Source: Marsupella aquatica | Taxonomy: Eukaryota > Plantae > Marchantiophyta | Reading direction: 5' to 3' | NCBI GenBank assembly: GCA_973895155.1 | Contig: OZ316894.1 | Span: 681,968 to 745,967, forward strand | DNA length: 64,000 bases | Shown: piece after piece, positions 12,016 through 34,387 of the stretch | How the letters are laid out: each line of letters begins with the position of its first letter | Position numbering within the stretch: position 1 is the first letter of the stretch | Notes under the pieces: generated by a model | The model's input: the letters and a program-made list of their open reading frames with translations, nothing else | Databases searched by the model: none | What the model was told of the DNA's origin: nothing | Made by a program: the position numbers and the translations under genes

Positions 12016-12837
12016 AGAGTTACTTTGAGTTTAGGGGGTTTGGTTGGGGGTTGAGGGAGACAGTTTGGAGTTGAGTTTAGGGTTTAGGGAGTTTGGGTTG
12101 AGGGGGTTGGGGAGTGGTGTAGTGGGGGTTTAGGGAGTTTGGGTTGTCACACCATTCTAGATGTTGTTGTAATATATAGTGCTAGTTGAGTATGTACGTT
12201 TTGTATGTGTGCTATTGGAGCCGATAGGGTTCCATTAGGTTTGTGTGAGAGGGTAGTTCTCTCTTGTGAGGCATTGAAAGGTTATCTTTCAATGTTGAGC
12301 CTTGGAGAGGGGAGCTTGTGTGGTGGCTATGGTGGTTGAGAGCTCTCTCTATGTAGCATGGATTCCTTGAGTGCAAGGTGCGTTGGCTCGACATATGTGT
12401 GTGATTGGATCGGACGGGATTGAGTGCGTATTGTTGGCGTCGATCGTTGTTCCGATTGTATTGAGGTTATTGTGGGTTTTGGACATGTGTGGACATGAGT
12501 TCCACTTGTATTTCATTCTCTTGTGTTTGTGATGCTACATTGTGGATATGTTTGGATGTGTGTGACAAGCGATGTATGTTGTGTAGCAATGTGTATGCGC
12601 ACGACAGGGTTTAGCGGGTTTGGTTGTGGGTGAGGGAGTTGTGTGTTGGGGGTGGAGGGAGTTTGGTTGGAGAGGAGTTGAGGGAGTTACTTTGAGTTTA
12701 GGGGGTTTGGTTGGGGGTTGAGGGAGACAATTTGGAGTTGAGTTTAGGGTTTAGGGAGTTTGGGTTGAGTGGGTTGGGGAGTGGTGTAGTGGGGGTTTAG
12801 GGATTTGGAGTGAGGGAGTTTAGGGGTTAGGGTTTAG
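12016..12837 (+). repeat. Degenerate telomere-like G-rich tracts, with a ~120-bp block duplicated on both sides of a solo LTR
   Basis: TTTAGGG and TTAGGG variants. The block AGTTACTTTGAGTTTAGGGGG...GGGGGTTTAGGGA occurs at about 12018-12136 and about 12685-12803. Confidence 0.75.
12145..12606 (+). mobile_element. Solo LTR (~460 bp)
   Basis: Runs TGTCACACC...CACGACA and is flanked by GGGT/GGGT. Its 3' part and its first 16 bp match LTR sequence at 63465-63609. Confidence 0.7.
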
Positions 12838-13397
12838 GATTTGCGTGTGGGCAATGCAATGGTTCACATGTATGCAAAGAGTGGCAGTATAGGTGACGCC
12901 CGACTTATTTTTGACAGAATGGAGAAATGTGATGTCACACGTGGAATGTAATGATCAGTGGTCTTGCACAACATGGATGTGGGAATGAAGCCCTGGACCT
13001 ATTTGATCAGAAAAAGGCCTTGTTGATGACGGCTGTATTGTCTTTACAGCTATGACGCAGGACTATGGCATCAAGCCTGAAATTGTGCATTATAATTGCA
13101 TGGTTGATCTTCTTGGGCGGGCTGGACATTTGGCGGAAGCAAAGCTCTTCATTAGTGACATGCCAGTTGAACCAGGTGAAGTAACTTGGAAAGCCTTGCT
13201 TGGTGCTTGCAGAACTTATGGTAATGTGGAGTTTAGGGTTTAGGGTGCCGCTAAAGAGCTTCTGAAGTTGAGTCCCAAAGATGCTTCTGCATATGTGCTC
13301 CTCTCCAACATCTATGCTAGAGCTGGCAAATGGGAGAAGAAGTCATTGGTGCGCACCATGATGCAAAAGAGACGTGTTTGGAAGGTGCCAGGACGTA
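12838..13397 (+). pseudogene. PPR-DYW paralog, piece 1 (S, P2, partial L2, S2, E1, E2, start of PG box)
   Basis: Reads DLRVGNAMVHMYAKSGSIGDARLIFDRMEK...HYNCMVDLLGRAG...YVLLSNIYA...VPGR. It carries a frameshift, an internal deletion and a telomeric patch. Confidence 0.9.
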
Positions 13398-14419
13398 CAC
13401 TAGAAGAAAACCTGTGTTTTACTACTACAGGCCCTGCAACTACTTTGCCTAAATAACTCATACGTGGTGCCAACCACTGTTTTTTTAATGGGTTGTAATA
13501 ATCTGCATTTTATTACTCTACTTAGAACTATGTTACCTTAATCACTGATTACAACTCTCTTTTTTGCCACTAAAACTTAGATCACTTGAATTAGAGTTGT
13601 ATATTACACAAATTTACAAATCACTACAATCCACCGTTCACTCCACCGTTGATGTGTACAACTCTATTTTCAACTAAGATTTTACTGCTGACTGAAACCA
13701 CTACAAATACAAGTACCACCAATATTTGAATGGTAAAGGTGCTTTTTCAATCAACTCCCAATCAAGTGAAGCTTTTCCAAGTGATCTTAATTACTTGAAA
13801 TAATGTCATTTGTGAGCACACCTTTTGTTACTGTAAATATCACCAATAGTGGAGTCACAAATGAATTTTGGCAAAATTATTTAAAATATTTTAGTGACAA
13901 GGAAATTCTTACAAACAACTTAAGATTGAGTGAATTAATTCTCAATGTACAAAATTTCTTTAATAAAGTCATTATTATCACAAATTGTCTGACTACAAAT
14001 ATCATTAATATTAGAGTCCAATAAATATTATTTGATGCAACTTCAAACCAAGTGCCACATCCTCCTTAGTCCAAAATCACTCTAAAGAATGTCATTCTCT
14101 TCGCACATTTTAGTGACTCCAAATACCACTAAGAGTAGAGTGTCAATGCAGGACCTTGCAAATGACTTGAAATAAAGTAGATCATTTTCCATTCTTATTC
14201 AAGTAATGTCATTCTTTAAATACATTTTGCCACTGCAAATGCCACCAACATTAGAGTGTCAAAACAGTTTTGATAAATGACTAAAAATTAAACAGATTAT
14301 TTTGTGATGTCCAAAACCTCTCCCCATGGTGTCATTATCAACACACATTTTCAGTCACAATATGCATGCCGCCGGAATTATAGCGACAAACAATTTTTTT
14401 ATTTACAAATTGTACCCAA

Positions 14420-17170
14420 ACCACTACACAACAGGTGCTTTGAGGGTTTTGGGCACCTGTCACTTGAAATACCACCATGTTTTAACTTAGGAAAGTTATG
14501 TGTTTGAACTTCCAATCAAGTGCATTGGTAAATACAAGCCCAAACCACTTAACATAAGGTCCTTTCGGGCTTTCATCTTCTTGCCACTACAAATTGCACC
14601 CATATTTGAGTGATGAGGCACACATTGGTGCGACCACTTGCCATGAACTAGTGCTAAAAGGAGTGAATTGTGTGGATGCATCACATAAGCCCCATATTTG
14701 TAATTCCGTAGAGTCTTGGAGTGATTTGTGTGGAGTTCATGATGTTGCAACACTTGGGTGCCTCAAATCTCTCCACCTTGGCAATTTATGCGTCACAACT
14801 TCATTGTCGTTGCTATAACTAGTTGGCACACGTGATGGGGGTGTCCCATGGCTTCACCATGGGGGGGCTAACACGGAGGAATTATGGTGGAGGCGGGCCC
14901 AACCCTCCTCCTTTAATCTTGGCCCTCCGAGAATTGCCGCAAGGTGGATCCACTTCTCATTATCCATTGTAAGTTTGTTACTCCCCAAATCACTAAAAAC
15001 CATGTTCTTCAAAGCCCTCATTTCTAGCGCGACTAACACTATCACTCAAGATGGGGTGGTACATAACGCATCCCTCTAAACCACTTCTCATGAAGTGGTA
15101 GTCCTAGAGTGATTGGGGGGCAAACCACTACAAATGATGTGGTTTTAGGGTTTAGGGCAAATGCAACTTAAGATAACACCTTTATTTGAGTTGAGAAGTT
15201 GGGGGTGAACACTTGCAATGAAGTGTATTTATATGTACACGCCCAATTGACTCGGAAAAAGGTCCTTTCAGGCCCTCGCCTTTTGGCGACTACAAATTGC
15301 ACCTGTATTTGAGTGATGCAGCACACTTTAGTGTGACCACTTGCCATGAACTAGTGCTAAAAGGAGTGAATTGTGTGGATGCATCACATAAGCCCCATAT
15401 TTGTAATTCCGTAGAGTCTTGGAGTGATTTGTGTGGAGTTCATGATGTTGCAACACTTGGGTGCCTCAAATCTCTCCACCTTGGCAATTTATGCGTCACA
15501 ACCTCATTGTCGTTGCTATAACTAGTTGGCACACGTGATGGGGGTGTCCCATGGCTTCACCATGGGGGGGCTAACAAGGAGGAATTGTTATGGCGGTGGG
15601 CCCAACCCTCCTCCTTTAATCCTGGCCCTCCGAGAATTGCGGCAACGTGGATCCACTTCTCATTATCCATTGTAAGTTTGTCACTCCCCAATCACTAAAA
15701 ACTCTGTTCTTCAAAGCCCGCATTCTAGCGACTAACATTGTCACTCAGGTTGGGGTGGTACATCATGTATCCCTCAAAACAACTTCTCATGAAGTGGTAG
15801 TCTAAGAGTGATTGTTGTTCCCAAACCACTACAAATGAGGTAGTTTTAGTGTTTAGGGGAAATGCGACTCAAGATACCACCGTTATTTGAGTTGAGAAGT
15901 AAATTGGGTATGAACACTTGCAATGAAGTGCATTTGTAAGTACCAGCCCAAACCACTTGACATAAGGTAGTTTTGGGCCCTCGCCTTCTGGCGACTTCAA
16001 CTTGCACCCGTATTTGAGTCATGCAACACACATTGGTGCCACCACTTGCCATGAACTAGTGCTAAAAGGAGTGAATTGTGTAGACGCATCACATAAGCTC
16101 CATATTTATAATTCTGTAGAGTTTTGGAGTGATTTGTGTGGAGTTCATGATGTTGCATCACTTGTGTACCTCAAATCTCTCCACCTTGGCAATTTATGCG
16201 TCACAACCTCATTGTCGTTGCTATAACTAGTTGGCACACGTGATGGGGGTGTCACATGGCCTCACCATTGGGGGGCTAACATGGAGGAATTGTTATGGCG
16301 TCAGCCCAACCCTCCTCCTTTAATCGCGGCCCTATGACAATTGTCGCGAGGTGGATCCACTTCTCATTATCCCTTGTAAGTTTGTCACTCCCCAAATCAC
16401 TAAAAACTCTATTCTTCAAAGCCCGCATTTCTAGCGACTAACATTGTTACTCAGGTTGGGGTGGTACATCATCCATTCTCAAAACAACTTCTCATGAAGT
16501 GGTAGTTTGAGGGTGATTGTTGTTCCCAAACCACTACAAATGAGATGGTTTTAGGGTTCAAATTGCACCCGTATTTGAGTCATGCAACACACATTGGTGC
16601 CACCACTTGCCATGAACTAGTGCTAAAAGGAGTGAATTGTGTGGATGCATCACATAAGCCCCATATTTGTAATTTCGTAGAGTCTTGGAGTGATTTGTGT
16701 GGAGTTCATGATGTTGCATCACTTGGGTGCCTCAAATCTCTCCACCTTGGCAATTTATGCGTCACAACCTCATTGTCGTTGCTATAACTTGTTGGCGCAC
16801 ATGATGGGGGTGTCCCACGGCTTCACCATGGGGGGGCTAACACGGAGGAATTGTTATGGCGGCGGGCCCAATCCTCCTCCTTTAATGATGGCCCTCCGAG
16901 ACTTGCCTAAAGCTAGATGGCCTACATATTCTCTTTGTAAGGTTGTCACCCCCCAAACCACTCAAAATAATATGCTTCAAAGCCCTCATTTCTTGTGACT
17001 AAAACTTTCACTCAAACTTATGTGGTACATGACGCAGTCCTCCAAAGAACTTCTGATGTAGTGGTAGTCGTAGGGTGGCCATAATTCCCAAACCACTGCA
17101 AAAGAGGTAGTTTGAGGGTGTAGGGAAATTCCACTTAGAATATCACCGTTATTTTAGTGGAGAAGTAAGT
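14420..17170. repeat. Tandem array of ~703-bp units (~4 copies) inside the CACTA 5' region
   Basis: The TTGCACC..TATTTGAGT anchor occurs at 14594, 15297, 16002 and 16563 (periods 703, 705, 561). Confidence 0.9.
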
Positions 17171-20100
17171 GGAATGGGGTAAATTGTGTGTAAACACTTT
17201 CAATAACAATGTGGTTCCAAACTCTCACATGTATTCTAGTGTTAGTACCATCACCTAGTCTTGAGTGATAAATGACATAATGTTGTAATTTACAAATAAC
17301 TGACAATCAAGTAAGGGACAGAGATCTTGTAAATACCACTACAGATCATGTCATACCGGATTCTCACCACAGTGCAGTAACAATGTCACCAACACTTTAG
17401 TGATAGACTGCTGAAACCACTGGCAAAGAGGTAGTGGGTTTTTGAGGGCTGGCAAAAGCACTTTGAATGTGGTGGTTTGGTTCCCCATTTTTGTGATACA
17501 ATAATTATAGTTTCTTTTTAACAACTTGCAATCAAGTAAGTGGTGGGGTGTTTTTTAGGATTGGCCAAAACCACTTTGGATGTGGTGGTTCCCAAGGATT
17601 ATACCTGCAAGACTACATATATACCACTTAACATTGACAAAAAACATATTGATTGAAGGTCGGAGTGGATAATTAAATTACCAGAGAAGTTAAGTGAATG
17701 GTGCCAAGGGATAATAATATATCCAGAGAATATGATAGCAATTTAAATGAAGTACAGGGTTTAGGGCACGTAGAAGCGAGGGGTTTCCGGATGGTTTATG
17801 TAACTCTCAACTGAGTGTCATAGAAAAAGTATTGTTTGGTGGCCTGGCACCACCTACATTTCTTCTCAAGCTTTGTGTGATTTGTAACACACTTTAAAGG
17901 AGTACTAGGGTATTAAAATTGGTAATAGGCAAAAAGTGATAGCTCATTGGGTACTCTATAAAATAAAATATGGGTTTAGGACAAATGTTTGAATTGGCAT
18001 TATATTAGTCAGACTCGTATTAGATCATTTCATTAATGACACAAAAAAGTCCATATGGATGATGTCATTTTTCACACAAAGAAAGTCTAGTGCATGCGAC
18101 AATACTTACTAGTACCTAATTATACCACCTAATATTGTTGGTGGCATATTGGAAATTATTGGTTTTTTGCTATACATTGAGAGGGCAGAGTTGTCATGAC
18201 TTAGCACTTATTTTGTGGGGTTAGACAATGCTTGGAGTGTAATTGAGACACTTGAAGTAGAGGGATTGGGGGCCTTGGCTTAACATCAAATTCAGCCTCA
18301 TTGATGGTTGAGATCACTCAAGGCAGTCTCATTTCATCCGGACGGCTGAGATCACTCTAGGGGCCGGCTGACATGTCAGTTAGATTTGCGCCAAACGGCT
18401 CTTTGCACCCGCGGGCCTGTGAGTCAAGTTTTATTTTTCCCACAAACTATCGAGACTCAACGTTGAATGTTGTGTTTGTGTGTCTGCCACAAAGCGTTTA
18501 GGGCGAGGGAGTCGAGGGGTTTAGCCCCGGGTTTAGCAAAGTTGCGCTTCTGTTTTGCCCAAAGAGTTTGCAATCAGATCAGGGCTCGTGGAGCTGCGGG
18601 AGTGTTGTGTAGTGTGCTGCGGGAGTGCTTTGGTGAGCGCTACGGGAGGGCTGTGCAGGAGTGTTGTGCTGTGCGGAGCTGCGCGTCCAAGCTAGCTCAC
18701 TGTTATCCGATTGAGCTGGGTCCATTATCATTCTTCTCGGCAGTGGGTCACGGAGATTTGCGCAGGAGTGTTGTGTTGTGCAGTGTGCTGCGGGAGTGCT
18801 TTGCGGAGCGCTGCGGGAGGGCTGCGCAGGAGTGTTGTGTTGTGCAGAGCTACAAGCTGTTGGAGCGAGCTACGGGCTTTGATAGAGTTCTCAATCATTG
18901 CAAGCTGCAATTTAGGGTCTGCCAACTGTGAGCTGGTACTTCATTGAGTTGAGCTTCAACCTGGGTAACACTTTTTCCAAACGGGAGTTGGATCTGCAGG
19001 CAGTCTAGGTCTGAATGTGGTCTGTTGCCTTGTGAGAATGTGAGACTGTGAGCTCACCGCTGCGGAATTCTTTCTTTTGCTGATGAACTCATCGGGCTTC
19101 GCCTCTCCAATCGCTGCCCTAGCTGCACGAGGTCACGGCTGCGGGATCCATCAGGCTTCGGCTCCTCCAATCGCTGCCCAACTGTACTTGCTATCATTGA
19201 GCGAGCGGCAGCCAGCCCCAACTTGGGTTCATTTTGTGAAGACTTACGGTAACTCCTCTCACTTCCGTTGATTGCAAAAACCTTCGATCCTTAGCTGTAT
19301 TAGGGAGCTTCTTGCATATTCTCTCACTGAGGAGGTTGTGCAAGGGTTATCAATTGCAACTGAGTCTGGGATGTGCGCATGCTGTTGTTGCATCTGATTG
19401 AGCTGGTAAGTTGCTGTCTCCGATTGAGCTGGTAAGTTGCTGTCTCCAATTGAGTTTGACTGTTTGGGCTGCGCTTACATTGCTGCTTTGGGCATCTGAG
19501 ATGCGACTTGCAGTTTGAGGAGCCGCAACAACATTAGTTGTAGGAGGCGCAGCAACATCAGTTTGAGGCTCAGACGACTTGACATGCGACTTGCAGTTTT
19601 AGGAGGTGCAGCAAGATCAGTTTCAGGAAGTGACTTGTTGCTGCTGATCAAGTTTGAGTAACAGTGAGTTAAAATTCTGTTGCAACCTTTGAGTTGGGCT
19701 ACACTTGTAATGCTGCAAGATTTGAGGTGAACTCAATTGACGTCTGCCAACTGCTACGATGGTGAGTTCACTTGCGCTGCAAGTTGCTGTGAGTTTTATT
19801 AGCTAGAACTTCATTAAAATTTGTTATATAGGTGTTTGAGTGATCAGCGATCGACTTGCTAGGTTTGAGAGCTGGGATTGAGGTGCAAATTTGAGAGTTG
19901 GGAGTGAGGTACGAGTTTGAGGGCCACTGCAAGTTTGAGAGGCAAGACTCAGCTACAACTTTGAGAGTCGGGATTCAATCAGCTGCAAGTTTGAGTGGCG
20001 GTCGAGAGCAAGGTTTAGGTTGCTAGCTACTCCGCTTTGTTGCTTGGGCTTCAGAATCTCATCCTCTGTACCTATTGGCTATTTTGGATTCCCATCATCC

Positions 20101-20866
20101 GTGTCATTGCCTTCTTCTCTGCAGTTTTGCTCATTGTATGGACTACCCCTATCCCTCGTTGGTGGATGGCCGTGTTCACCGGAATTCCTGTCAAAAGCCT
20201 CTCTTTAAGGTCACATATTGCTGGTCTGTAAGGCTTACAGAAGCATACTGGTCACATATTGCTTGCTGTTTGCTATAGATGAGTACAGAATGGAAGAATG
20301 AAATACTCTTTAGTCTTGTCATTTAATAGTCTTGTCATTTAATAGTCTTGTCCTCTCCACGTCCCGGGTTAACTGTTTAAATAGAGACTAATGGTTCACA
20401 GTTGAAATAGAGACAAACTGGTTTTGTTGTAGAGAAGAAGCTCTTTACTTGCTATACTAGTATCAGAGTTTTGTCTGTCTTGATCAATGCTAGGCCTACT
20501 GTCGGTCTTGCCGTCCGATTGAAAACTCTGGTATGGTCAATGGTATGTTTTGAGTTTCTTCATCTTGTCTCCTGCTGTTGCTTCTCTTTTATGAATCTTG
20601 GAATCCTATTTGGTACTCTATTATGGTTAATGGAGTCTTGTTTGTGTTTGGGGTACATAGAATGACCAACTGTTGGCATTGGGAAAGTCTTGAGCCTGTC
20701 TGAGCTTGTCCTTTAAAACGTTCAGGGATTCATCCCTGTATATAAACTGAAATTCTGGGTCAGTGATGAAATCTCCAGTTTTTTAACCATGGTCTTATAG
20801 TTTCAGGAGCGAGTGGACCTGCTGTGGACGTGAGCAAAGCAGCACAGGACGTGATCGAGAAAAGCT

Positions 20867-21313
20867 ATGGTGAGGACTCGCAGCGCTCATTCTCAGAGTC
20901 TTGCAGGCACCGCAGAGAGATTGCGTCTGGAGTTTGTCAGACGTGGCACATGGCCAGCCCACTCTGCATGGTATTTTCGTTATCCAGTTGTAGTCCAGAA
21001 TGACTACAGCCAGCCTCCACCTGTGGCATTACCCTTTCCCACATCCGTGGTGTATGTGTCACTTATTGGCAAAGTGCCACACGTCAAGGCCATCCTAGCG
21101 CATGGATGTATCCATTCTTGCCAGTATGACTGCGTTGCTTGTAGGGTGGTCAACCCAAAAACCCTGGTCGGTGCTGACAAAGCCGCTAAACAAAGTAGGA
21201 GGATATGCATCCTTTGGAATCACTTTGCATTGTTGAATGGTGTGGATAGTGATCTCGGGTGTCCAGCCTGCCCAACCCCGCTATTGGGGGTTTCTCGGAC
21301 ACATCATGTTTGA
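20867..21313 (+). CDS. CACTA cargo ORF, 148 aa, Cys/His-rich; possibly a degenerate His-Me-finger zinc-binding loop
   Basis: Intact ATG-to-stop ORF containing C..C.VVNPKTLV.......SRRIC...CPAC. Confidence 0.45.
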   Translation: MVRTRSAHSQSLAGTAERLRLEFVRRGTWPAHSAWYFRYPVVVQNDYSQPPPVALPFPTSVVYVSLIGKVPHVKAILAHGCIHSCQYDCVACRVVNPKTLVGADKAAKQSRRICILWNHFALLNGVDSDLGCPACPTPLLGVSRTHHV

Positions 21314-22149
21314 TTTGAAGTTAGTTTACAGCTGCAGGAATTCTAACACAATATGCACGTACCAGGATGCAATGAGATAAGGCATATTTTTGGATGAAAT
21401 AGTAACTTAAACACTGAGAAATAACTTGAACTGCTCTGACTTTTTCTATATTCGTACAATTTTGGATTGAGGGTTTGAACACCTCAGTGGAATTAAAGTT
21501 TTGAAGTATATTGCAAAAATCCTATCTACTAAGCACAACATTTTAATCTAAGATGTCACCAGTCCACTCAACATCTCTGTTCAAGACTCTGTTCCAGAAG
21601 GCCCACAATCTACTGTTAACTGAAAGTTGAATCCAATAGTTAAAGTCTCTGTCAATGACTCCCACTCCCCCCTCGCACATATGCCTTATGGCTCTAGATC
21701 GGGTACAGTGAATGAAGAAAGTTGAAGAGTGTCCATGCAATTATTTTTCTGAGTTCAATGGGTAGCCTATTGTCCTTTGCATAATTGGAATAGTATTGAA
21801 TGAGTCTGAGGCAACCTTTAGTTACAGAAGGAGTTTGAAACAAAACATCAGATGCATGTATACAGTAGTCCAATGACTATTTTGTGTCACATTTGTGTTG
21901 TTGCAGATTATGAATCCTTGTTTTACATCTTGTGACGTGAGAGGGGATTGAGATCTACATCTGAAACCGATCAAGACAATCTCCAAATTTCAGTGCCTTC
22001 CTCTTGGTTGAGTACAGTTGGTGAGTCCTCTGCATCCTGGCCCCATATTGGATTGCAATATGCAAGTGGTAGTACGTGTTTTATGACAGCCAATTTAGCA
22101 GTGTAATAACTCTTCAAGTTTTCTTGTTCATGAATGTCCAGTGGTCTTA

Positions 22150-22803
22150 ATGGCTAGGACCAAGCATAAAGCCAGAAAGAATGATACTCGAACGAGAAAG
22201 GAGGAAGATGTGTTGATGATTGAATTGTGGTTAGACATTGAGAAACGTCAGTGTAGTCCCCAGCTTTGTGGCATTTGTGACTGGCATGGAGATCTGGCCA
22301 TGTGTGATGGGGCTTGCCATCGGCACTTCCACCATGTTTCCAAAGTTGGTGAAGCTGTCGGCACGTGCCCTGCCGTATTTATTGCACTAGGCAAGGATGA
22401 TGATCCTTGGTATTGTCCAGAGTGTAAGGATAAGACATACAGGTGTTTTCAGTGTGGCATTGTCTCTGCTGTAGCCAGGAAGTGCCCCCAGCCATATTGT
22501 GTTCATTTTTATTGTCATGGATGCTTGCCACTTGATGTGGAGTCTTGCCCCATCCATACATGTGTTGCATGCCAGCAAGACCATCGTGACCCTCATCTGG
22601 CAGAGGCCGTGCAGTGTTTGAGATGTCCCAAAACTTGGCATCGTACTTGCCTAGCCGAGAGCCAGCGTCAAGGTTTTGCACCGGACAGAGTGCCCTGGCA
22701 TCATACTGCACATGACCAGGGACGTTGGATGATTTACTGTCCTGACCATCCTATTGACCCTGCTCTAGGCACAGCAGCTCATGATCACATCTCCTGGCTT
22801 TGA
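22150..22803 (+). CDS. CACTA cargo: histone-H3-tail-like N-terminus plus EDM2/NSD-type composite PHD fingers
   Basis: N-terminus MARTKHKARK. Also CGICDWHGDLAMCDGACHRHFH...WYCPEC, CFQC..CPQPYCVHFYC, CPIHTCVAC, CLRCPKTWHRTCL and IYCPDHPIDPALGTAAHDHI. The ORF is intact. Confidence 0.8.
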   Translation: MARTKHKARKNDTRTRKEEDVLMIELWLDIEKRQCSPQLCGICDWHGDLAMCDGACHRHFHHVSKVGEAVGTCPAVFIALGKDDDPWYCPECKDKTYRCFQCGIVSAVARKCPQPYCVHFYCHGCLPLDVESCPIHTCVACQQDHRDPHLAEAVQCLRCPKTWHRTCLAESQRQGFAPDRVPWHHTAHDQGRWMIYCPDHPIDPALGTAAHDHISWL

Positions 22804-23307
22804 TTGACGTGGTCCATTTTGGTTCAAATACATCAATACTACTATAGACATCGATACACTTAGTTAGTTAATGGAACAATGACGTTTTGTCCGCATCACA
22901 CATTTTGTTTACACATTTTGTTCACACATTTTATTCACTGTGTGAATGGTTAGCACGAGCATGGAGACAATGCTCTGGGTTTAATTGACTAAGGCCAGCT
23001 GTCTAGAAAATCAAAGTACTCAAACTCTACTTATTTATTTGGTAATTATTTTGTATACCAGTATGAGGTCCATCCTAGTTGATGTTTATGGATGTCAATA
23101 CTGTGGATGTGATTGAATTGTTTGGACCCAGTGTTTATCTGGTTGTCTTGTTTGTTGGGTGTCATGGATGGGGCATTGTCAATGGGGTATTTTCTTCAAC
23201 CTGCTGTCTGTGGGTAGCAATAGAGTTTCAGGTTTGAAAGAAGCATCCTAAACACATGAAACAAAGACATAAAACGTAAAACTTTTCTGCAAATAAAAAT
23301 TCACAGT

Positions 23308-24179
23308 ATGAACTCAAAAGAGAAAACTATGGAGTGGCAAGTACAAATTATGAGGGAGCTGAGCTTATTGTCATGTCCATGTTGTAGGTTCTCACCAGTG
23401 AATGTTGGAGGTGAAACACTACACTCGGTATGTCATTTATTCCAGACCGCCACACCATATGTAGACTCCTCATACGGGTGGCTACATGGATGTATTTTGT
23501 GGTGGTTTGGCTGGTTGGTTTGGTAATCCGACAATTTGTACCCCCACCTGGCAGAACCATTGTCAACCTTGAATCTGTTGTACAGTATTGTAAGGCAGAT
23601 GAGGAGGAGGTTTACTTTTCGGCAGATGAGTGTGAAGCCGGGTGTGAAGAGGATGATGAGGAATGTAGTAGTTTGCTACATGTTTTGCCATATGATTTAG
23701 TAGTCACAAATGTATGGCCTAGGGTTCTTTCCATGTCATCAGCGCAGGACATTTGCCAATATCGACTCATTAGTACCCAATGGAGGGACTTGGTAGCCAT
23801 GTCCCCACAATGGAAGGCATTGAAACTACTACTTGTAGGCACAGATCGTAGACCACCATGGCATGATCTTGGGTTAGACTTAGATGACTTAATGTACTTG
23901 CCTGAGTACCTGAGGGTTGACTATCATCGAGCACAGGAGTGGTATTTGTACTGATCTGATAAGATTCACAGATCTGATATCACTCTAGTGGAGTGGGTTT
24001 CTATGACTACACACCATTGTATTCTGATATGGTCATGGATGTACATGCAGAGTAGCCTAGAGGTGTGGAGTCCAGTGCTGGTACCATTAGAGTGGAGGAT
24101 TGCAGTATCCAGAGAGCTTGCAGAGGTTGCAAGGTACGTGGGTCCTCTGCATTTTGGCAAATTGAGTGGAAGACATTGA
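23308..24179 (+). pseudogene. CACTA cargo: F-box-like gene with a possible degenerate MBD-like N-terminal region
   Basis: F-box-like segment LLHVLPYDLVVTNVWPRV...ICQYRLISTQWRDLVAMSPQWKAL. The in-frame TGA at 23952-23954 is followed by the same frame to 24179. There is a probable frameshift near 23500. Confidence 0.55.
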
Positions 24180-24206
24180 TTGGATTGACTTGAAGTGCCT
24201 GAAACA

Positions 24207-27200
24207 ATGTTGAGGAACTTTCGTGGTAGTCAAGATGACTTGAATAGGAGGGATGACAAGTTGTGGCGTCGACAGACTGCAGCCTGTAGAGCTGCTGGGA
24301 TGACAAAGATAAAATGTCCTTGCTACATTTGCAACTGTAGGGGTAATCGTGTTAGTCTAGGGACTGTTAAAAAGCACCTCATTCAGAATTCTCGCCACCC
24401 ATCGCAAAGGTATTGGTGGGGAGAGGACTGTGACTCTTCTGATGATGAGTGGAATGCACGATGCATGGAGGGGGATGGTGCATTTGAGGGCCCTGTGGAC
24501 AATGCAAGATGTGCAGAGGAACTTGCCAATGATATGGATTGTGGCATAGATATCCCTGGGATACTAGAGGACCTAGCAATACCAAGTGAAACTGCTAGTG
24601 CCAGTGAACCCGTCCAAGAAACCACTGCAGAGGAGCCCACTCTGCAGGAAAGTGAAGAGGGTCTCTTCAACATGGATGATCTTCTGGAGGCGGACAGTAC
24701 ATCTGGAGAAGCAACACCTTAGATTTGGGACCAACAGGCAGAGGAGAAGATGATGCGAGCATTTGAAGAGGCGTGTGCCCCTTTGTATGAGGGGTCCACT
24801 ACTTCCCAATTGTCATTTGTGCTGACATTTCTAAACACATGCCATAATCATGGTTTCACCAACTCTGGAGTTGATGAACTGCTTTCGTTGATGGGGAAAC
24901 AGTTGATGCCTGCTAAGAATCTGCTGCCTAAAAACCTGTATGCATGCAAGAAGCTAATCAGTCATGCTGGCTTGGATTATGTCAAAATTCATGCTTGTGA
25001 GGATGGATGTGTCCTATTTAGAAAGGAGCATGCTGATTGCGATGAGTGTCCACTGTGCAAAAAGCCTAGGTATAAGCAGGTTGGGCAATCAAAGCAACCT
25101 ATGAAAGTCCTTCGACATTTCCCCCTCATACCCAGGTTGAAACGAATGTACAGGTGCAAGGCTATTTCAGAGTTGATGACATGGCATAAGGACAGTAAAA
25201 GCACAGATGGAAAGGTCCGGCATGTTGCAGATTCTAGGGCATGGAAGGAGATTGATACAACAATTGATCCAACATTTGAAGCAGAGCCTCGCAATGTACA
25301 CCTTGGATTGGCTCTGGATGGTGTGAATCCCTTTGGGGAAAACAACCTCAAGCATTCTACGTGGCCTGTGGTATTGTTGAATTACAATTTGCCCCCTTGG
25401 TTGTCCACCAAGAAGTTCTTCATTATGTTATCTTTGCTGATCCCTGGGCCTGATTCAGTGACTGACCGCAACATTGACATTTACATGGCTCCATTGTTGG
25501 AGGAGCTTTTGGAGCTCTGGGAGGGAGTTCCATGCTTTGATTCACTTGATAGGCCTGGCCTGAATAAGTGGTTCAATCTACGGGCCATTCTATTGTGGAC
25601 AATGAATGACTATCCAGCTTTGGGTCTCATATCGGGTCAAGTCACAAAAGGATATCATGGATGCATTGTGTGTGGTCCCAATGTGAGCTGCAGAAGGTCT
25701 GCTGCTCTATCCAAAAATGTATTTCTGGGGAGTAGAAGGTGGTTGGAGGAGAACCATAAGTACCGCTCCCAAAGTTATGCAGCAAAATTTGATGGGGAGT
25801 GCGAGCCACGGGGGCCTCCCCCAAGGATGACTTGTGAGCAAAAATTAGCCTTTGCTGCTGAGGTGGAAGAGTACTTGAAAACACCTGGGGCCAAACAAGG
25901 AAGCAAGAACTGTCCTTCGAAGCTTCATGGGGTGAAGAGGACACAAGAGCTTGCAAAGCTGCCATACTGGTCGGTGAGTAAAATCACACTTGCATTCACG
26001 TTTTTTACTTGAAGATATTGCAACCAGCATTGTACACACATGTCAATTTGCAGTTGGACTGATTTGCTTTTTGTTGTTTGCATACAGAAACTTCTGATCA
26101 ACCATGTGCTGGATCCCATGCACACAGAGAAGAACATTGCTCAGAATTTGATTCACACTACTTCTGGGAAGAAGGATACCACTGCTGTGCGGAATGATAT
26201 GGAGGCTGAAGGCATTCACGAGCAGCTATGGATGAAGCCTCATCCAAACAATAAGAAGGATCACTTTGTGAAGCCCAAGGCGCCCTATGTGATGAGCAAA
26301 CCAGAGCTGGAGAAGTTTCTGGGCACTTTGAAGAACTTGAAAGTTCCCACAGATTTTGGTAGCTCATTGGCAAAGTGTGTGAGAGCCAGCAATAAGTTGG
26401 CTGGTCTCAAGTCTCATGACTACCATTGCCTAATGCAGCAGATACTTCCCTTGGCATTGAAGGACTTGATGGCAACAGGACCTCGAATGGCTATCATTAG
26501 TGTGTGTCGTGTGTGGCGTAAAATTTGCTGTAAGGTTTGGGACCCTAGCACTAAGGATGAACTGATGACAGATGTGGCACATACTTTGTGTGCTCTGGAA
26601 ATGCATTTTCCAGCTTCATTTTTTGATGTCATGACACATTTGATGGTGCATATAGTGGAAGAGCTAGATATATGTGGACCTGTATCACAACGGTGGATGT
26701 ATCCAATCGAGAGATACCTGAAAAACCTAAAGGGTTTTGTAAGAAATAGGGCACGACCAGAGGCATCTATGGCTGAGGGTTATATCCTAGAGGAGGCATT
26801 GGGATTTCTCACAGAGTATATGGTTCAGTGCCAAGTAACTCGGCAGCAGGTCTGGGACTCTGAAGAAGAGGCAGGGGTTAAAGGTGTGGTCCTGGAAGGG
26901 GCCTCAAGTAAACTGTCTCTAACTGTTGCTGATCGAGATGCTGCCCACACCTATTACCTACAGAACCATGTACAGGTTGCACCATGGCTCAGGTACATGA
27001 TAAGCTCATTTTGTTTATGGCTGTCTCAGTGTTCAGTAATGTAGTTCTAAATGCGCTTTCACAATATGACAGTATTTCTTTTATGATATCTGACATTGTT
27101 CTTTGCTTGCTTGGAAGGTTGTATGAGTCAGAAGAGGAGGAGCGAAGGATAGAAAGGGAAGCTGTTGTAAGACAAAATAATGCAGAACGACGACGAGGCA

Positions 27201-28048
27201 GACGTCAAGCAATGGCCTGTCCTGCTGAATTTGCTTCCATTCCTTTTGGAGTGTGGTTCAGGGATACAATACACAAGGCTAACCTGGATGACAATGAGGA
27301 CAAGTTGTTGTTGACTGCAATTTCTTTTCCACCAAGCCAGAAGGCTTTGTCTTACAATTCAATGAAGGCTTTTGGGAACCATTACAGAGTGATGCGCTGC
27401 AAAGATAGGAATGGTGAATGGCGTGAGATGTCCACTCTCAGGGACACTGATTGTCAAGGATATGCTACATTCAATTCAGGGGTGGCCACAACTTTCCATG
27501 AGCAGATCAGGGAAGAAACTGGAGTGAATTTGGCCAAGCTTACATATGTGGGGGTTATGACACAGATACTTGTGCTTGACTATGGACCTCTGTTACATTC
27601 TGAACCAGCCATAATCTTGAAGGCAAAGTGGGTGCGGTCTAAGTGGGGAGAGCAGAGGTCTAATCCATCAATGAAACATGACGAGACTGGCCTATGGCTT
27701 GCTAATTTTAATATGCCTTATCCCTCAGCTGAGAAATTAGATTATGTCTTGCCCAGTCAGATTGAGCAGGTTTTCTTTTACCCAAACACAGCCAGGGCCT
27801 CTTGGAGACATGTCCTCCATAAGGAAGGGAGGTCTCGACGAGTTGTTGAGGGTATAAATGACCTTGAGTTTAATGATCTTGTGGATCGTCATGAGGCTGT
27901 TGAGGCTGAGCTTGTTGCAGCAGCTAACAGACGAGTGCCCTTGGATGAAGGAGAAATTGTAGTTTTTCAGGAGATGGCAGTGTTGACAAGAAGTGATAGT
28001 GATGATGATGATGTCTGGGAAGATGAAGAAGATTCAGATGAAGAGTGA
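24207..28048 (+). pseudogene. CACTA TnpD-type transposase (3 exons) with one premature stop
   Basis: Motifs: transposase-associated CPCYIC..KHL, LALDGVNPF, YNLPPW, LDPMHTEKN, GLKSHDYH, RWMYPIER. Predicted introns are 25974-26087 and 26993-27117. There is an in-frame TAG at 24720-24722. Confidence 0.93.
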
Positions 28049-28121
28049 GAATGTGCCTCTTGGGGCAGGAAGTACTGATTGCTCTTTGGTGATAGTGTTT
28101 TTTATGCAGTTTTGAATTGAA

Positions 28122-31096
28122 ATGCATGATCGGTCTGGGGTGAAAGGTTCTGAGAATGCCTATGAGGCACAGAGGAATAAGAACATAGCAGCCAACCAAG
28201 CTATACTTGACCAGTTTGTAGGAACTGCTGCAAGAGATTTAAAGTATGTACTCTATCCCTATATAGTTTTGAATTTATGCCTTGACTTTATTACTAATTA
28301 ATGGTTCACACTCATGACATTGCCAGGGTGATTGCAGTTTACAGGGTGAGGCAAGGGTCAAGCGTCTATCTAAGTTGTCAAAGAAGACTGAACAGAATCA
28401 GCCGTCTATAGCAAAGCGTAGGAGTTCACGATTACTTGGCAGGCACCTGGAGAAAATCATGGAGAGTGACAACAGTGGGAGTGATGAGTCTGAAAAATCA
28501 GCTGACACAAATTATGGGGCAGGTTTAAGTGATGATCACGAATCAGATGGTGTTCAAGAGCTACGTAAGGTAAGAGAAGACTCACTATCATTTTCTACTT
28601 CACTTGAAGCTAATTGCATTAATTGTCCAATTTCTGTATATCTCAATCTGGTGCTACTGTTACTAATTACTTGAATGTGCACACTGTTATCCTCAGGCTC
28701 CCCGAAAGTCAGGGCTTAAATATTATGTGGATCCTAGGACAAAGGAAGTGAGTGTGTGTAAGTAATTTATTCATTACCTCACTTGCCATGAACTTGTTTT
28801 TGACTTGCCAAGTGAATCCTGAGTTCAGAGTTCTCACAGTTGCAGATTGATTGTCACAAGTTACATTAATGTTTGACTTGCTAATAGAATCTCTTTGGTT
28901 GGTTGTGGTAGTGACACCCTTGCCTAGAGCATCTGCTCGTGATCTGGATGATGGAATTGTCACAGAAAGATCAGAACAGACACACGTACGACAATCATCT
29001 CGTGCTGCAAAGAAACAATGGGAAGAGAACACAAGCGAGCGTCGCAAGTTGGGCATGAAGAAAGCTGCAATCACTGTATGTTGCTTGTGAAAGATCATGC
29101 TTGTGATTTATTGTTTGTCCTTTGTTATTGGTCTCTTATGATGCATTGTGTGCAGATTTGGAACAATGATGTTGATCCCAATGATCCATATCGGGCACGT
29201 TGGGGAGATGATCTTCGTGCTGTGTGTATGGGTAAACTGAATCCTTCTATCCGTGAGATTAAGAAGCAAGACTCAGGGGTTCTTCTTCATGTTTATGTTG
29301 TGTTGGAGAACGATTGGGCATATGTACAGGGGACTCTGTCAATGAAGAAGTTCAGGTCTCATTGTTCAGCAGTAATGAAAGCACAGCGAGCAAGACTCCA
29401 CAAACATTTTCAGGAAGGTGGAAGACGCTTGGACAAGAAGCCCCCTGAGAATGTGAAGCCTGAACATTGGAAGGCATTGTGTGAGTGGTGGCTGTCTCCA
29501 GAAGGGATGTCTAGCATTGACAAGATGAAGTATGCAAGATCTAAAGTCATTAATCCATCAAGGGTTGGACGAGGTGGCTACCGTGGGAAGGAGTCTGACT
29601 TTGTAAGTATACAAGATTCATTTACAGTTATTATGAATGTTTGTAAACAACAAGTAGGCTTACAGCATGTGTCTTCCTTTGTTTTAGCAATTGGTATGCA
29701 AAGAAGCAAGAAGTTTCATTCTAATATGTATTGTTTGGTTTCATTGCTCAGAAGAGAAAAAGAGGGGAAAGTCCACCTCTGTCTGAGCTACGCTCAAAAG
29801 ATGATAGATTTGGAGTATCAAGTGTGAGATCTGTCACAGGACAGACCACACCATCTCATCGGAGAGGCAGAAAGTCAATTGTGAGTATTAGTTCACAAGT
29901 CCAATTTTTGATTTCCAAATTGCCAAGTCTAGGTGATATCCACTAACTTTTGTATGATTGTTCAATGGTTGCAGACACCAGGTTCCAGGGCTATGATGGG
30001 AGACGAGGAAGGACGTGATGAGCATATGTTGAGTACAATTGTGAATGCAATAAGTACAGGGATGAGTATTGGGTTTAAGCAAATGTTAACTGTTTTGACA
30101 AAACCTAGCCTAAGTCAAGATGTGGAAGAAACCAGAACTGTCCCAGTTGGGCCGGGACAGTCTTCAATGCCCTCACGAATGAGTTCAGTTCCGAAAAGTC
30201 ATTCAGGCCGTAGTACTTCAGCTGTGAAACTAGACTTTTTGGTGGACTTGACCAAAGAAGGTATGTTCTTTATAGAGGACAGTTAAAGTATGTGTAATCA
30301 AGCATGCATGACTTGGATTAGTGAATGTTTTCTAATGTCTTGAAATGTTAATGGGCAGTTGAAGATGATCAGGGGATTGATCTCAATGCTGCTGTGGAAT
30401 ACAATTATGACCCAGTGATTGTGAAGCAAGAGATCAATGAAGAAACAGAGGTGGTATACAGTTCGCCTGCGCAGCATGATCAAGCAGGCAAAGATAAGGT
30501 TGGAATACCATCTAAACCCTAAACTTTGTACTATTAATGTGTTCATTATCCCATGAATTTGTAATGTGAACCTGGTAGGGCATGCTTATGTAAGTTGTCT
30601 CACCCTAATCTATTTTGTAGGAGATAATAGAAGCTTTGACACCTGAAGTTGTTTTGACAAAGTCATCTGAAGAAGCCATTGTTACAGAGTTTTCAAAGTC
30701 GATCCCTTCACCTTTTGTCTTGAAGGTGAGCAAAAGCAAATGATTGCTTTCAATACATGTCCTATTCGTTTATTTGCTGTAACTTGTCATTAACAAGTCT
30801 AAGTAATGAAATGGCTGTGTTATGTTGTTGATGTGTGACAGTTTAAAGTAGGAGACATGGTGAAATTGAAATCACCAGTGGATCAGCAGGTGATTGCTAT
30901 TGCCAGAATCGATGGAGTATGTGGACTTGATCGATATTATGACAACCCAGTTCCTACTGGCTTCTTGATTGTCAAAGCTGTTTCTATTTTGAATGGAGAT
31001 GCACCTCTCCAAGAAAAGCACCCAGAAGGCTTGGTAGCCCTCAAACATGTGAAGGGGCACCCATTTTTGTGGAGGCAGAAGTTAATGAGGAAGTAG
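28122..31096 (+). CDS. CACTA TnpA/Ptta-like multi-exon gene (exon structure not fully resolved)
   Basis: Contains AYEAQRNKNIAANQAIL, a Transposase_24-like segment PPENVKPEHWKALCEWW...SRVGRGGY, and C-terminal VKLKSP...PFLW. Many GT-AG boundaries are visible. Confidence 0.7.
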
Positions 31097-31802
31097 GATT
31101 AGTAATTGAGGAGTAGAGCTTGCAATAGAGAATCCATGTGATTGAAGAAGTATGTAGGTTCCCATATAGGTAGCATGGATACTATTGTGCAACTATGGCT
31201 CTCAGTTTTTGGATTCCCAGATGTGTATCACTCTGGAATTTTGTTGGTGTTTGAAATGATGACTTACTAAGATTGTGTCATTTCTCAAATTTATTTGAAT
31301 GTGTATGTGAGACATTTGAGGTTTTTGCTATTGCTATTTAGGGTTTAGAACTTTAAAACTAATGACTCTACATCTAGTGATTCGACATTCCAATGTACTA
31401 TCATTCAAGTTCTATAGTACACCCAAATCACTACAATTGAAGTGATCAATACTAGATTGTGGCCATACTACTGCAACTATAGTTATCAAAGATATGATGT
31501 TCATCACCCATTTTAAAGTTGTAACGTAGCAATCTATAACACTTAAGATGTAGTCATATAGCAAGTAATAATGGACTGAATGATAGGTCTGTAAATACAG
31601 TCATATATAACAAATAACAAAAGCTTTACAATTACTACTTCAATTTAAGACATATATCAAGAACTAAATTGTAAAATAATATCTTTATTACGTTAAACTT
31701 AGTTATATAGCTGCAAGTACTACATGTGTCTAATATGTCATGTTATCACTTTAAATTTAGTGTCACTACAAGTTGTAAATGTAATTTGGTTATGATTTCA
31801 AT

Positions 31803-32340
31803 TCTAGTCATATAACTAGTATTAAAAGTTGACACAAAGTATCTTTAAGACTCAAAATCTAGTCATATAGTGGCAAGGGCTATATAGTTTCTACTTGAAT
31901 TCTAGTCATGAAATAAGTTATTTGAGGTTCAGGGTGCATTGATCACAATTGACTTTTGGCAATTGTCACCCCCAATGATTCTGGAGACCGCCACATGTTT
32001 AGGTATCATTTGTCAAAAAAAGTCACCATAGTAGTCGTTTTGGGCAAAATTTAATAATTGTTATTTTTCTAGTCATATAACTAGTATTAAAAGTTCGACA
32101 CAAAGTATCTTTAAGACTCAAAATCTAGTCATATAGTGGCAAGGGCTATATAGTTTCTACTTGAATTCTAGTCATGAAAGAAGTTGTTTGAGGTTCAAGG
32201 TGCATTGACCACAATTGACTTTTGGCAAATGTCACCCCCAATGATTGTGGAGACCGCCACATGTCTAAGTATCATTTGTCAAAAAAAGTCACCATAGTAG
32301 TTGTTTTGGGCAAAATTTAAATAACTGTTATTTTTCTAGT
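31803..32340. repeat. 265-bp tandem duplication in the CACTA 3' subterminal region
   Basis: TCTAGTCATATAACTAGTATTAAAAGTT occurs at 31803 and 32068, each followed by near-identical sequence. Confidence 0.88.
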
Positions 32341-32547
32341 TATTTAAGACCGTTGGGTTTGAAACCGACGGTGACATAAACCACTCATACATTTTGAGTA
32401 CTTGTTATAAACGACTTCATGCTCAATACGACTAGTTGTCTAAAGCGACTGACATTAGTGCACTCAAACCATTGAGTTGTAAATTGTCCGTTATCACTCT
32501 GAAACAAGTGAATTAGGTAGTGATAAAATCCCGATTTCCTTCTAGTG

Positions 32548-32906
32548 GTAGTTGGATTGAATTTGACAAGAAGATCCATAAATTTGTTTTAGGAGATAGA
32601 TCTCACCCAGAAGCGAAGGCAATATATACTGAGCTCAATAAATTGACTGAAAACCTGAAGGTTGAAGGCTACATTCCGGATACTCAACTTGCGTTGCATG
32701 ATATGAATGAGAAGGATAAAGACCTAGCTCTTTGCTCTCATAGTGAGAAGTTGGCTATTGCTTACGGACTTATGCACATACCTCAGGGGAAGCCAATTTG
32801 AGTATGGAAGAACCTTCGGGTGTGTTCAGATTGCCATACTGCAACCAAGTTTATCTCTAAGGTGACTGGACACGAGATTGTAGCCAGCGATACCAATCGC
32901 TTTCAC
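32548..32906 (+). pseudogene. PPR-DYW paralog, piece 2 (DYW core)
   Basis: Reads SWIEFDKKIHKFVLGDRSHPE...HSEKLAIAYGL...[13 protein letters not shown]...DTNRFH, with a premature TGA at 32799-32801. Confidence 0.93.
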
Positions 32907-34229: not shown

Positions 34230-34270
34230 TGAGTTGATGGAAACAACGGATGCAAAACTCAGGGAGAAGA

Positions 34271-34387
34271 GAAGAGGTGAGTCCGGGCAGACCAGAAATG
34301 AAACGAAGGGAAGAGGTGAGTCTGGGCAGTGCACAAATGAAACGAAGGGAAGAGGTGAGTCAGCGCCTCACAGAAATGAAAGGGAGA
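34271..34387. repeat. 39-bp tandem repeat, 3 copies
   Basis: GAAGAGGTGAGTC occurs at 34271, 34310 and 34349. Confidence 0.85.

What the first reader, a model, noticed from the sequence alone, without database searches (positions are those of the whole stretch)
22150..22803. CACTA cargo protein: histone H3 tail mimic fused to EDM2-like PHD fingers
Seen: an intact 217-aa ORF beginning M-ARTKHKARK. H3 is ARTKQTARK, so R2, T3, K4, R8 and K9 are in register. Tandem atypical PHD fingers follow, ending CLRCPKTWHRTCL...IYCPDHPIDPALGTAAHDHI. The ORF is intact while the neighbouring TnpD has a stop. Known: this C-terminal pattern resembles the composite PHD region of Arabidopsis EDM2, which reads H3K9me2-containing tails and promotes full-length transcription through heterochromatin with ASI1/AIPP1. 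Inference: a transposon-borne stand-alone reader carrying a decoy tail, which could compete with or recruit host silencing machinery. Caveat: MARTK-like starts also occur in other plant TE ORFs.
Basis: partly seen in the sequence, partly recalled or inferred. Interest (0 to 1): 0.8.

Follow-up and report, generated by a model that had tools for sequence, protein, structure and literature searches.

The report
Transposon-borne histone reader with H3-like tail
A complete plant jumping gene carries a small, long-conserved gene made of the zinc-finger module of the chromatin regulator EDM2 behind a short start spaced like the histone H3 tail, which likely lets the element engage its host's silencing machinery, though no binding has been shown.

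Summary
The 217-aa ORF is real and lies inside a complete 19.15-kb plant CACTA element (13398-32547; terminal repeats, GTA duplication, empty site seen in a paralog). It encodes a stand-alone EDM2/NSD-type triple PHD cassette with all zinc ligands (model pLDDT about 95 over residues 31-210) behind a disordered 24-residue tail. It belongs to a clade of short proteins, 35-77% identical, on a long branch apart from full-length EDM2-like proteins, and is under purifying selection. The tail motif is conserved in 19 of 24 members, but as [AS]R-x-K-x-x-A-x-[KR]: H3's A1, R2, K4, A7 and K9 spacing is kept, while T3, Q5, T6 and R8 are not, and only 9 of 19 would expose a free A1. This copy's 7-of-9 match overstates the family. 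The cassette lacks EDM2's RFD and methyltransferase-like domains and the acidic residue before PHD1, so it is not an EDM2 orthologue. 'Intact while TnpD has a stop' is no evidence (P 0.83). Best reading: a transposon accessory chromatin factor with a likely H3-tail bait; a nuclear-import or generic basic motif is the main rival. No expression or binding data.

The parts
13398..32547 (+). Complete CACTA/EnSpm element, 19,150 bp, inserted in the E+ region of a decayed PPR-DYW gene copy
   Evidence: Termini match 12 of 13, 23 of 30; GTA on both sides; the inverted paralog near 5405 reads through with a single GTA
13395..13410 (+). Left target-site duplication (GTA) and left terminal inverted repeat
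32535..32550 (-). Right terminal inverted repeat and right target-site duplication (GTA)
14410..17435 (.). Left subterminal array (units of about 700 and 560 bp, with AAACCACT-type motifs)
   Evidence: families D5-D9, D11, D20
31802..32347 (.). Right subterminal duplication (two units of about 266-280 bp, 95% alike)
18400..19000 (+). Possible element promoter or leader (inferred only: GC-richer, less CpG-depleted than the element body)
   Evidence: CpG observed/expected 0.65 in 18001-19000 against 0.22-0.38 in 21001-31000; sequence; no RNA data
22139..22141 (+). Likely splice acceptor (CAG), 8 bases before the ATG
   Evidence: other copies lack 4 bases at 22130, just upstream; inferred, no spliced read seen
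22150..22803 (+). Single-exon ORF, 217 aa: H3-spaced tail plus EDM2/NSD-type PHD1-3 cassette
   Evidence: other copies have A at -3 where this copy has T (4 of 4 runs)
22153..22179 (+). Tail motif, residues 2-10 (ARTKHKARK); family form [AS]R-x-K-x-x-A-x-[KR]; predicted disordered
   Evidence: pLDDT under 50 for residues 1-14 and 18-24
22267..22425 (+). PHD1, C4HC3 (C40, C43, C52, C56, H61, C73, C89, C92); invariant D53-G54; no acidic residue at position 37
22444..22557 (+). PHD2-like finger (C99, C102, C112, C117, C122, C125, C133, H136); Cys at 122 where long proteins have His; about 18-20 residues shorter than in long proteins
22561..22800 (+). PHD3, C4HC2H (C138, C141, C156, C159, H164, C167, C197, H200), and the C-terminal extension shared with EDM2-like proteins
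   Evidence: C4HC2H named as the EDM2/NSD1 pattern in PMC3776765 (passages)
20867..21313 (+). Second cargo ORF, 148 aa, starts MVRTRS, no family found
23415..23954 (+). Third cargo ORF with a weak F-box match
   Evidence: PF00646 E 0.0014, 18.9 bits, under the 20.5 cut-off
24207..28048 (+). TnpD transposase region (introns inferred near 25.98-26.09 kb and 27.0-27.1 kb); in-frame TAG at 24720-24722
   Evidence: Transposase_21 E 1.8e-70, DUF4218 E 1e-34
28100..31096 (+). Multi-exon TnpA-like region (inferred)
   Evidence: Transposase_24 E 0.084 only; exon-like frames

Best explanation
This is a conserved accessory gene of a plant CACTA transposon that encodes a stand-alone EDM2/NSD-type triple zinc-finger cassette behind an H3-spaced basic tail, and it likely works as a chromatin-docking protein whose tail would bait host histone-tail enzymes or readers and so help the element escape silencing. 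Shown: the element, the ORF, the fold, the family, selection on the fingers and conservation of the tail motif. Inferred, step by step: (1) an EDM2-like cassette was captured long ago and lost the RFD and methyltransferase-like domains; (2) it is probably made from a spliced transcript, with an acceptor 8 bases before the ATG; (3) the cassette likely binds chromatin or chromatin proteins, with a specificity changed from EDM2's, because the acidic residue before PHD1 is gone; (4) the tail would present R2, K4, A7 and K9 in H3 spacing, fitting factors that need R2 and K4 better than K9 writers that need Arg-Lys at 8-9 (that requirement is recalled, from no call); (5) the net effect would be to divert silencing factors from, or keep transcription running through, the element's long multi-gene unit.
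For: Element with terminal repeats, 3-bp duplication and an empty site. Family of short proteins at 35-77% core identity that forms one clade, SH-aLRT 97, on a long branch (22 of 51 rows), also seen in a 162-row tree (support 0.93). Zinc ligands C40-H136 kept in 20-21 of 21 family rows, later ones in 16-21 of 21. Among diverged copies, 9 of 16 variable places in codons 29-60 are synonymous against 18.75% expected, P 0.0009, rough dN/dS 0.18 without transition correction (table classed by hand). Motif in 19 of 24 family rows; at the two positions not used to find it, A7 is kept in 15 of 19 and K or R9 in 16 of 19, while the columns after it vary freely. Summed H3 match of 14 tails 59, against shuffled mean 36.0 and maximum 47 in 20,000. 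The fuller pattern occurs upstream of PHD1 in 1 of 98 non-family rows, so it is not simply inherited linker. Met stands 1 or 3 residues before the motif in 15 of 19, and other copies have A at -3. Precedent for transposon-carried epigenetic factors: VANC (PMC5735166, abstract); TET, SET and Vandal cases (PMC12730594, passages).
Against: T3, Q5, T6 and R8 are not conserved (3, 3, 0 and 3 of 19); position 6 is mostly K (11 of 19); only 9 of 19 have Met directly before the motif; 5 of 24 rows lack it (some may be truncated or frameshifted). The first 25 residues hit nothing in the PDB at E up to 10. The motif was located with a pattern that fixes positions 1, 2 and 4, and family rows are related, so the shuffle figures overstate independence. 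PHD1 lacks the acidic residue that is key for H3 binding in AIRE (D297; PMC3526288, passages; the equivalence is my inference from alignment). One short protein from a different clade, P0046, carries the same R-P-K-M-K-A-S-K as P0010, which could mean that the motif is an older generic signal. A link to a transposon is shown only for this locus; no DNA context was obtained for the distant members. This copy itself is drifting. The anti-silencing effect has no direct support.
Confidence: 0.45

Rival explanations
1. The gene is a selected transposon accessory factor, but the tail is a nuclear-import or generic basic binding motif (DNA, or an arginine anchor for nucleosomes); the close H3 look of this copy is drift at variable positions.
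For: Conserved residues are mostly basic; K at position 6 (11 of 19) is not H3-like; T3 and R8 vary even among the three closest homologues; extra N-terminal residues in 10 of 19; host EDM2-like proteins have basic stretches before the cassette, and EDM2 is described with putative nuclear localisation signals (PMC3632883, passages); P0046 shares the motif.
Against: Fixed spacing with a conserved Ala at 7 (15 of 19) and basic residue at 9 (16 of 19) is more than an import signal usually needs (recalled); several members lack the K-K/R-x-K/R pattern (recalled consensus; sequences); the fuller pattern is in 1 of 98 non-family rows.
Confidence: 0.3
2. The tail is a built-in pseudo-ligand for the protein's own PHD1 (self-inhibition or oligomer formation), released by modification or by real H3.
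For: The L49-x-x-C52-D53-G54 strand is invariant in 21 of 21 family rows; the family profile finds unmodified-H3K4 readers such as AIRE PHD1 (E 0.0005); the motif lies 28-45 residues before the first Cys, enough to reach.
Against: The confident model leaves residues 1-24 unplaced (weak evidence, since such models often miss peptides); 10 of 19 would lack the free A1 that such pockets need (recalled); the acidic K4 contact is missing.
Confidence: 0.1
3. The cassette tethers the transposition complex to a chosen chromatin state and steers insertion; silencing is not the target.
For: Reader domains that guide integration are known in other mobile elements (recalled); this copy sits in a gene-derived sequence.
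Against: The protein is separate from TnpD, and no link to it was tested; one insertion site shows no preference; an H3-spaced tail is not needed for this.
Confidence: 0.1
4. A passively captured EDM2 fragment that rides along without function.
For: This copy's three listed coding differences are all non-synonymous; several homologues look frameshifted or cut short; intactness is uninformative; CACTA elements capture gene fragments (PMC13317346, passages).
Against: Zinc ligands, start, stop position and length are kept down to 35% identity; synonymous excess among diverged copies; family-specific invariant residues that differ from long proteins (Q34 in 21 of 21, C122 in 20 of 21).
Confidence: 0.04

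Closest known systems
Arabidopsis EDM2 and EDM2-like (ELP) proteins (PMC7529245, PMC3632883, PMC9910501, PMC4980392: passages read)
   Same: Atypical PHD cassette ending in C4HC2H, with the same C-terminal extension; 29-31% identity over about 185 residues to long EDM2-like proteins
   Different: 217 aa against about 1,300; no RFD, no methyltransferase-like ELP domain; acidic residue before PHD1 lost; His-to-Cys change and shorter loop in PHD2; own clade; carried by a transposon; H3-spaced tail
NSD1/2/3 PHD1-PHD3 cassette
   Same: Profile match E 2.7e-15 to NSD2; best structural match NSD2 PHDv-C5HCH, 9gbf_A, Z 6.0, rmsd 2.2, 74 aligned (a middling Z)
   Different: No PWWP or SET domain; plant-type C-terminal extension
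VANC anti-silencing proteins of VANDAL (MuDR) and TnpA of Spm (PMC5735166 abstract; bioRxiv 10.64898/2026.08.24.746577 passages and section 6)
   Same: Accessory gene of a plant DNA transposon with a plausible role against silencing
   Different: Those bind DNA motifs of their own element; this protein is a host-derived histone-reader-type module with no DNA-binding domain found and no shown activity
TET/JBP- and SET-carrying DNA transposons, including fungal EnSpm (PMC12730594, passages)
   Same: Host chromatin module kept as transposon cargo
   Different: Those are enzymes; this is a non-catalytic cassette with a peptide motif; 'PHD' occurs 0 times in that paper's main text
Histone mimics of viral proteins (PMC11738798, passages) and of chromatin enzymes such as SetDB1 (search listing only)
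   Same: Short H3-like motif in a non-histone protein
   Different: Here the motif is N-terminal, degenerate at T3/Q5/T6/R8, fused to a PHD cassette and carried by a plant transposon; that paper itself warns that such motifs may have no function

Membership tests
CACTA/EnSpm transposon | CACTA...TAGTG terminal inverted repeats | tested here: met
   13398 and 32547, 12 of 13
CACTA/EnSpm transposon | 3-bp target-site duplication | tested here: met
   GTA on both sides; single GTA in the inverted paralog
CACTA/EnSpm transposon | TnpD transposase (Transposase_21, DUF4218) | tested here: met
   E 1.8e-70 and 1e-34; one in-frame TAG in this copy
CACTA/EnSpm transposon | Subterminal repeats | tested here: met
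   14.4-17.4 kb and 31.8-32.3 kb
CACTA/EnSpm transposon | TnpA-like gene | tested here: inconclusive
   Transposase_24 E 0.084 only
EDM2/ELP proteins | Repeated atypical PHD fingers, last unit C4HC2H | tested here: met
   ligands listed; pattern from PMC3776765; model pLDDT 89.6 overall
EDM2/ELP proteins | N-terminal RFD domain (PF12047, found in 5 of the 25 hits scanned) | tested here: not met
   no such match in P0001 or in 16 of 16 rows of alignment A2; only 39 residues precede PHD1; an unseen upstream exon is not excluded
EDM2/ELP proteins | C-terminal methyltransferase-like ELP domain | tested here: not met
   stop codon 17 residues after the last zinc ligand, at the same place in most homologues
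EDM2/ELP proteins | Binding of H3K9me2-bearing tails; work with ASI1 and AIPP1 | not testable with these tools
   acidic residue before PHD1 is D/E in 77 of 80 long proteins, P/A in 20 of 21 family rows, so specificity may differ
Histone H3 tail mimic | Match to H3 1-9 above chance | tested here: met
   7 of 9; 1 of 2,613 Met positions in the window; 0.02% of shuffles
Histone H3 tail mimic | Conservation of R2, K4 and K9 spacing across relatives | tested here: met
   motif in 19 of 24; A7 15, K9 12 and R9 4 of 19
Histone H3 tail mimic | Conservation of the full ARTK..ARK form (T3, R8) | tested here: not met
   T3 3 of 19, R8 3 of 19, T6 0 of 19
Histone H3 tail mimic | Free N-terminal Ala1 | tested here: inconclusive
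   Met directly before the motif in 9 of 19, 3 before in 6, 7-8 before in 4; true starts unknown
Histone H3 tail mimic | Bound or modified by H3-tail readers or enzymes | not testable with these tools
   needs biochemistry
VANC-type anti-silencing factor | Sequence-specific binding to and demethylation of its own element | not testable with these tools
   no methylome or RNA data; no DNA-binding family among the Pfam matches

The most novel reading that the evidence does not exclude
A plant DNA-transposon lineage has built a histone-mimic counter-silencing protein from two parts: the reader module taken from the host's own heterochromatin read-through factor EDM2, and an H3-tail decoy kept for a very long time. 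It would be a plant transposon that uses histone mimicry against its host's chromatin enzymes.
Probability: 0.3. Interest if true: 0.88.

Novelty: new variant of a known kind. Interest (0 to 1): 0.62.

Why it matters
Few transposon-encoded defences against silencing are understood in plants, and the known ones (VANC, TnpA) bind DNA. A conserved, stand-alone EDM2-type cassette on a CACTA element points to a different route, through histone-tail recognition, and aims at the pathway that lets genes be read through heterochromatin. The protein is small, single-exon and well folded in the model, so peptide arrays, methylation assays and expression tests are direct. Even if the tail is only an import signal, the family is a natural variant series of the EDM2 PHD module, for which my PDB searches found no plant structure.

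Tried and rejected
No whole genome is held, so copy number and linkage in this genome could not be counted. No RNA holder was listed; expression and splicing are open. Both lays used contigs only: no listed piece spans 20.4-25.2 kb, depth is no copy number, and no GT-AG joint was seen. Among near-identical copies no variant at 2% or more fell in codons 1-27; this says little about selection, and the diverged contigs stop aligning before about 22213, so their tails were not seen. Scans of metagenome and viral contigs found no relative (313, 12 and 38 pattern matches, none confirmed), so distant members have no DNA context. A single-sequence search for longer relatives found none among 275 candidates; the profile search later found many. 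Complex prediction of residues 2-31 against 22-217 gave no verdict (score 0.00, alignment not used) and is not used either way. Foldseek against the PDB never ran; VIA-align gave 4 chains at Z 2 or more of 48,161. The Atlas gave a Streptophyta PHD_NSD cluster at 0.91 and nothing usable for residues 1-30. The shuffle test clipped the first motif residue of P0003 and was redone (14 of 15 rows; P0016 too short). Mimicry of the SUVH6 peptide read by ASI1-BAH was considered (PMC9910501) and dropped: the residues named there do not show the family's spacing, but I saw no full peptide. Whether other copies read through the TnpD TAG could not be told (40 of 310 variant rows shown). Literature searches (background 41, 66, 78) listed no paper on a PHD cassette or H3 mimic in a plant CACTA element; 'PHD' occurs 0 times in the main text of PMC13547354, PMC13317346, PMC12730594 and bioRxiv 10.64898/2026.08.24.746577. 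No supplements were read; the 962 Spm protein models of that preprint and repeat libraries may hold this family. PMC4203584 and PMC3890799, the primary EDM2 binding papers, are not held.

Full report
Observation. Its residues 2-10 match the quoted H3 motif at 7 of 9 positions. Of 2,613 Met positions in the six frames of the window only this one reaches 7, and two reach 5. Shuffling the tail's own residues reaches 7 in 0.02% of 20,000 trials. The look is more than chance for this copy.

Setting. A scan for CACTA ends found one pair with both a terminal match of 12 of 13 and a 3-bp duplication: 13398-32547, flanked by GTA. The flanks are a decayed PPR-DYW gene copy; its inverted paralog near 5405 reads through the same place with a single GTA, which fixes the insertion point. 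Inside lie subterminal arrays, a 148-aa orphan ORF, this ORF, a weak F-box ORF, TnpD (Transposase_21 E 1.8e-70, DUF4218 E 1e-34) and a TnpA-like region, all on one strand. TnpD has an in-frame TAG at 24720-24722. So the gene is CACTA cargo. The stretch is held by 6 runs of 3 coded organisms in 4 studies, and contigs of 4 of 4 laid runs cover this ORF, the F-box-like ORF and TnpD, though no piece spans them. The host is a land plant; the PPR gene looks moss-like to me, which is an impression from recall, not a result.

The fingers. Pfam gives four PHD/NSD models below cut-off. A profile of 16 sequences hits NSD2 PHD1-3 at E 2.7e-15. Against 1.84 billion representatives it finds 1,039 proteins at E up to 0.001, of which 150 were returned; many are 1,000-1,400 aa with the cassette near residues 220-430, and 5 of 25 scanned carry the RFD domain in front, the layout I recall for EDM2. 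P0001 aligns with one of these over residues 32-214, C-terminal extension included (29%). The last finger is C4HC2H, the EDM2/NSD1 pattern (PMC3776765, passages). A model from 75 sequences has mean pLDDT 89.6, 90-98 in every block from 31 to 210, and under 50 for most of residues 1-24. Its best structural match is an NSD2 PHD pair (Z 6.0, rmsd 2.2, 74 aligned), a middling score.

The family. Two searches gave short homologues of about 210-245 aa at 35-77% core identity. In a tree of 162 cassettes (169 proteins held; 4 near-duplicates and 3 fragments left out) 23 short rows form one clade, support 0.93; in a 51-row tree 22 rows do, SH-aLRT 97, on a long branch whose sister group is unresolved. 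Zinc ligands are kept, and the family has its own fixed residues: Q34 in 21 of 21, C122 in 20 of 21 where long proteins have His, and P or A at 37 in 20 of 21 where long proteins have D or E in 77 of 80. By alignment that last place is near AIRE D297, which is needed for H3 binding (PMC3526288, passages), so the family may not read H3 as EDM2 does. Several members look frameshifted or cut short, as decaying transposon copies would, but their DNA context could not be fetched.

Selection. Diverged contigs laid on codons 29-60 differ at 16 places, 9 synonymous by my hand count, none at a zinc ligand or D53; 18.75% of sites are synonymous, P 0.0009, rough dN/dS 0.18 without transition correction. 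This copy is itself drifting: S28L, A108V, Q111K and A-to-T at -3 differ from nearly all laid contigs (40 of 310 rows were shown).

The tail. Of 24 family rows checked (2 rows without an N-terminus left out), 19 carry [AS]R-x-K 28-45 residues before PHD1. In these, position 7 is Ala in 15 and position 9 Lys in 12 or Arg in 4; position 3 is Thr in 3, 5 Gln in 3, 6 Thr in 0 (Lys in 11), 8 Arg in 3. Columns after the motif vary freely. Five of the six conserved positions equal H3's; shuffling the consensus columns gives that in 0.17% of 200,000 trials, and the summed match of 14 tails is 59 against a shuffled mean of 36.0 and maximum of 47. Both figures overstate the case, since the rows are kin and the search pattern fixes positions 1, 2 and 4. 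The fuller pattern appears before PHD1 in 1 of 98 non-family rows, P0046, itself short and from another clade. Met is 1 residue before the motif in 9, 3 before in 6, and 7-8 before in 4. A CAG lies 8 bases before the ATG and other copies have A at -3, which fits a start here after a spliced leader; CACTA elements are known to splice several products from one precursor (PMC2613891, passages). No RNA was available to show it.

How it likely works. Shown: an old, selected, stand-alone EDM2-type cassette with a disordered, conserved, H3-spaced tail, carried here by a CACTA element. Inferred: the cassette docks on chromatin or its proteins, and the tail baits host factors that read or write the H3 N-terminus, more plausibly those keyed to R2 and K4 than K9 writers that need Arg at 8 (recalled). 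The gain would be less silencing or better read-through of a long multi-gene unit, the job EDM2 does for host genes with ASI1 and AIPP1 (PMC9910501, PMC7529245, passages); lacking the RFD and ELP domains, the protein would more likely compete than substitute. I put this at 0.45, an import or generic basic motif at 0.30, a self-ligand at 0.10, target-site steering at 0.10 and a passive fragment at 0.04.

Comparison and novelty. It is a member of the CACTA superfamily's cargo and of the EDM2/NSD PHD fold family, not an EDM2 orthologue. It works, if the reading holds, like VANC, TnpA or the TET and SET genes of other transposons, but through histone recognition. Seven targeted paper searches listed no description; supplements and repeat libraries were not seen. 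Earlier scan notes hold no look-alike sequence but do describe a fungal mobile gene with an H3-like start and PHD-like finger, and a case where an H3-like tail proved likely coincidental; both are unchecked leads. Verdict: new variant of a known kind, interest 0.62.

Noticed in passing
window 5007-8816 (-): Intact 1,269-aa PPR-DYW frame with eight 303-bp tandem units; a decayed inverted paralog (about 12837-13397 and 32548-32906) is the target that the CACTA element split.
   Followed up: partly
window 20867-21313 (+): Second cargo ORF, 148 aa, starting MVRTRS, with a Cys/His-rich second half; no Pfam or PDB match; covered by contigs of 4 of 4 laid runs.
   Followed up: partly
window 23415-23954 (+): Third cargo ORF with an acidic stretch and a sub-threshold F-box match; an F-box beside a chromatin module could point to targeted degradation of a host factor. 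Untested.
   Followed up: no
protein P0046: A second short EDM2-like cassette (280 aa), from the clade of P0028-P0031 and P0040, carries the same R-P-K-M-K-A-S-K as family member P0010: a second capture, a swap, or an older signal.
   Followed up: partly
window 22213-22330, contigs of runs X2, X3, X4, X6: Diverged subfamilies of this gene (about 83-90% alike) are present in the same runs as the near-identical form.
   Followed up: partly
window 45207-53546: Inverted duplication of about 8.3 kb in all, arms 83-92% alike, with long decayed frames.
   Followed up: no
window 33098-44290: Region with repeated TAGCGCC..GGCGCTA palindromes and several decayed frames, probably another DNA transposon.
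   Followed up: no
window 47451 (+): A decayed frame contains MARGHQTACRK, 5 of 9 to the H3 motif; the paired arm reads differently, probably chance.
   Followed up: no
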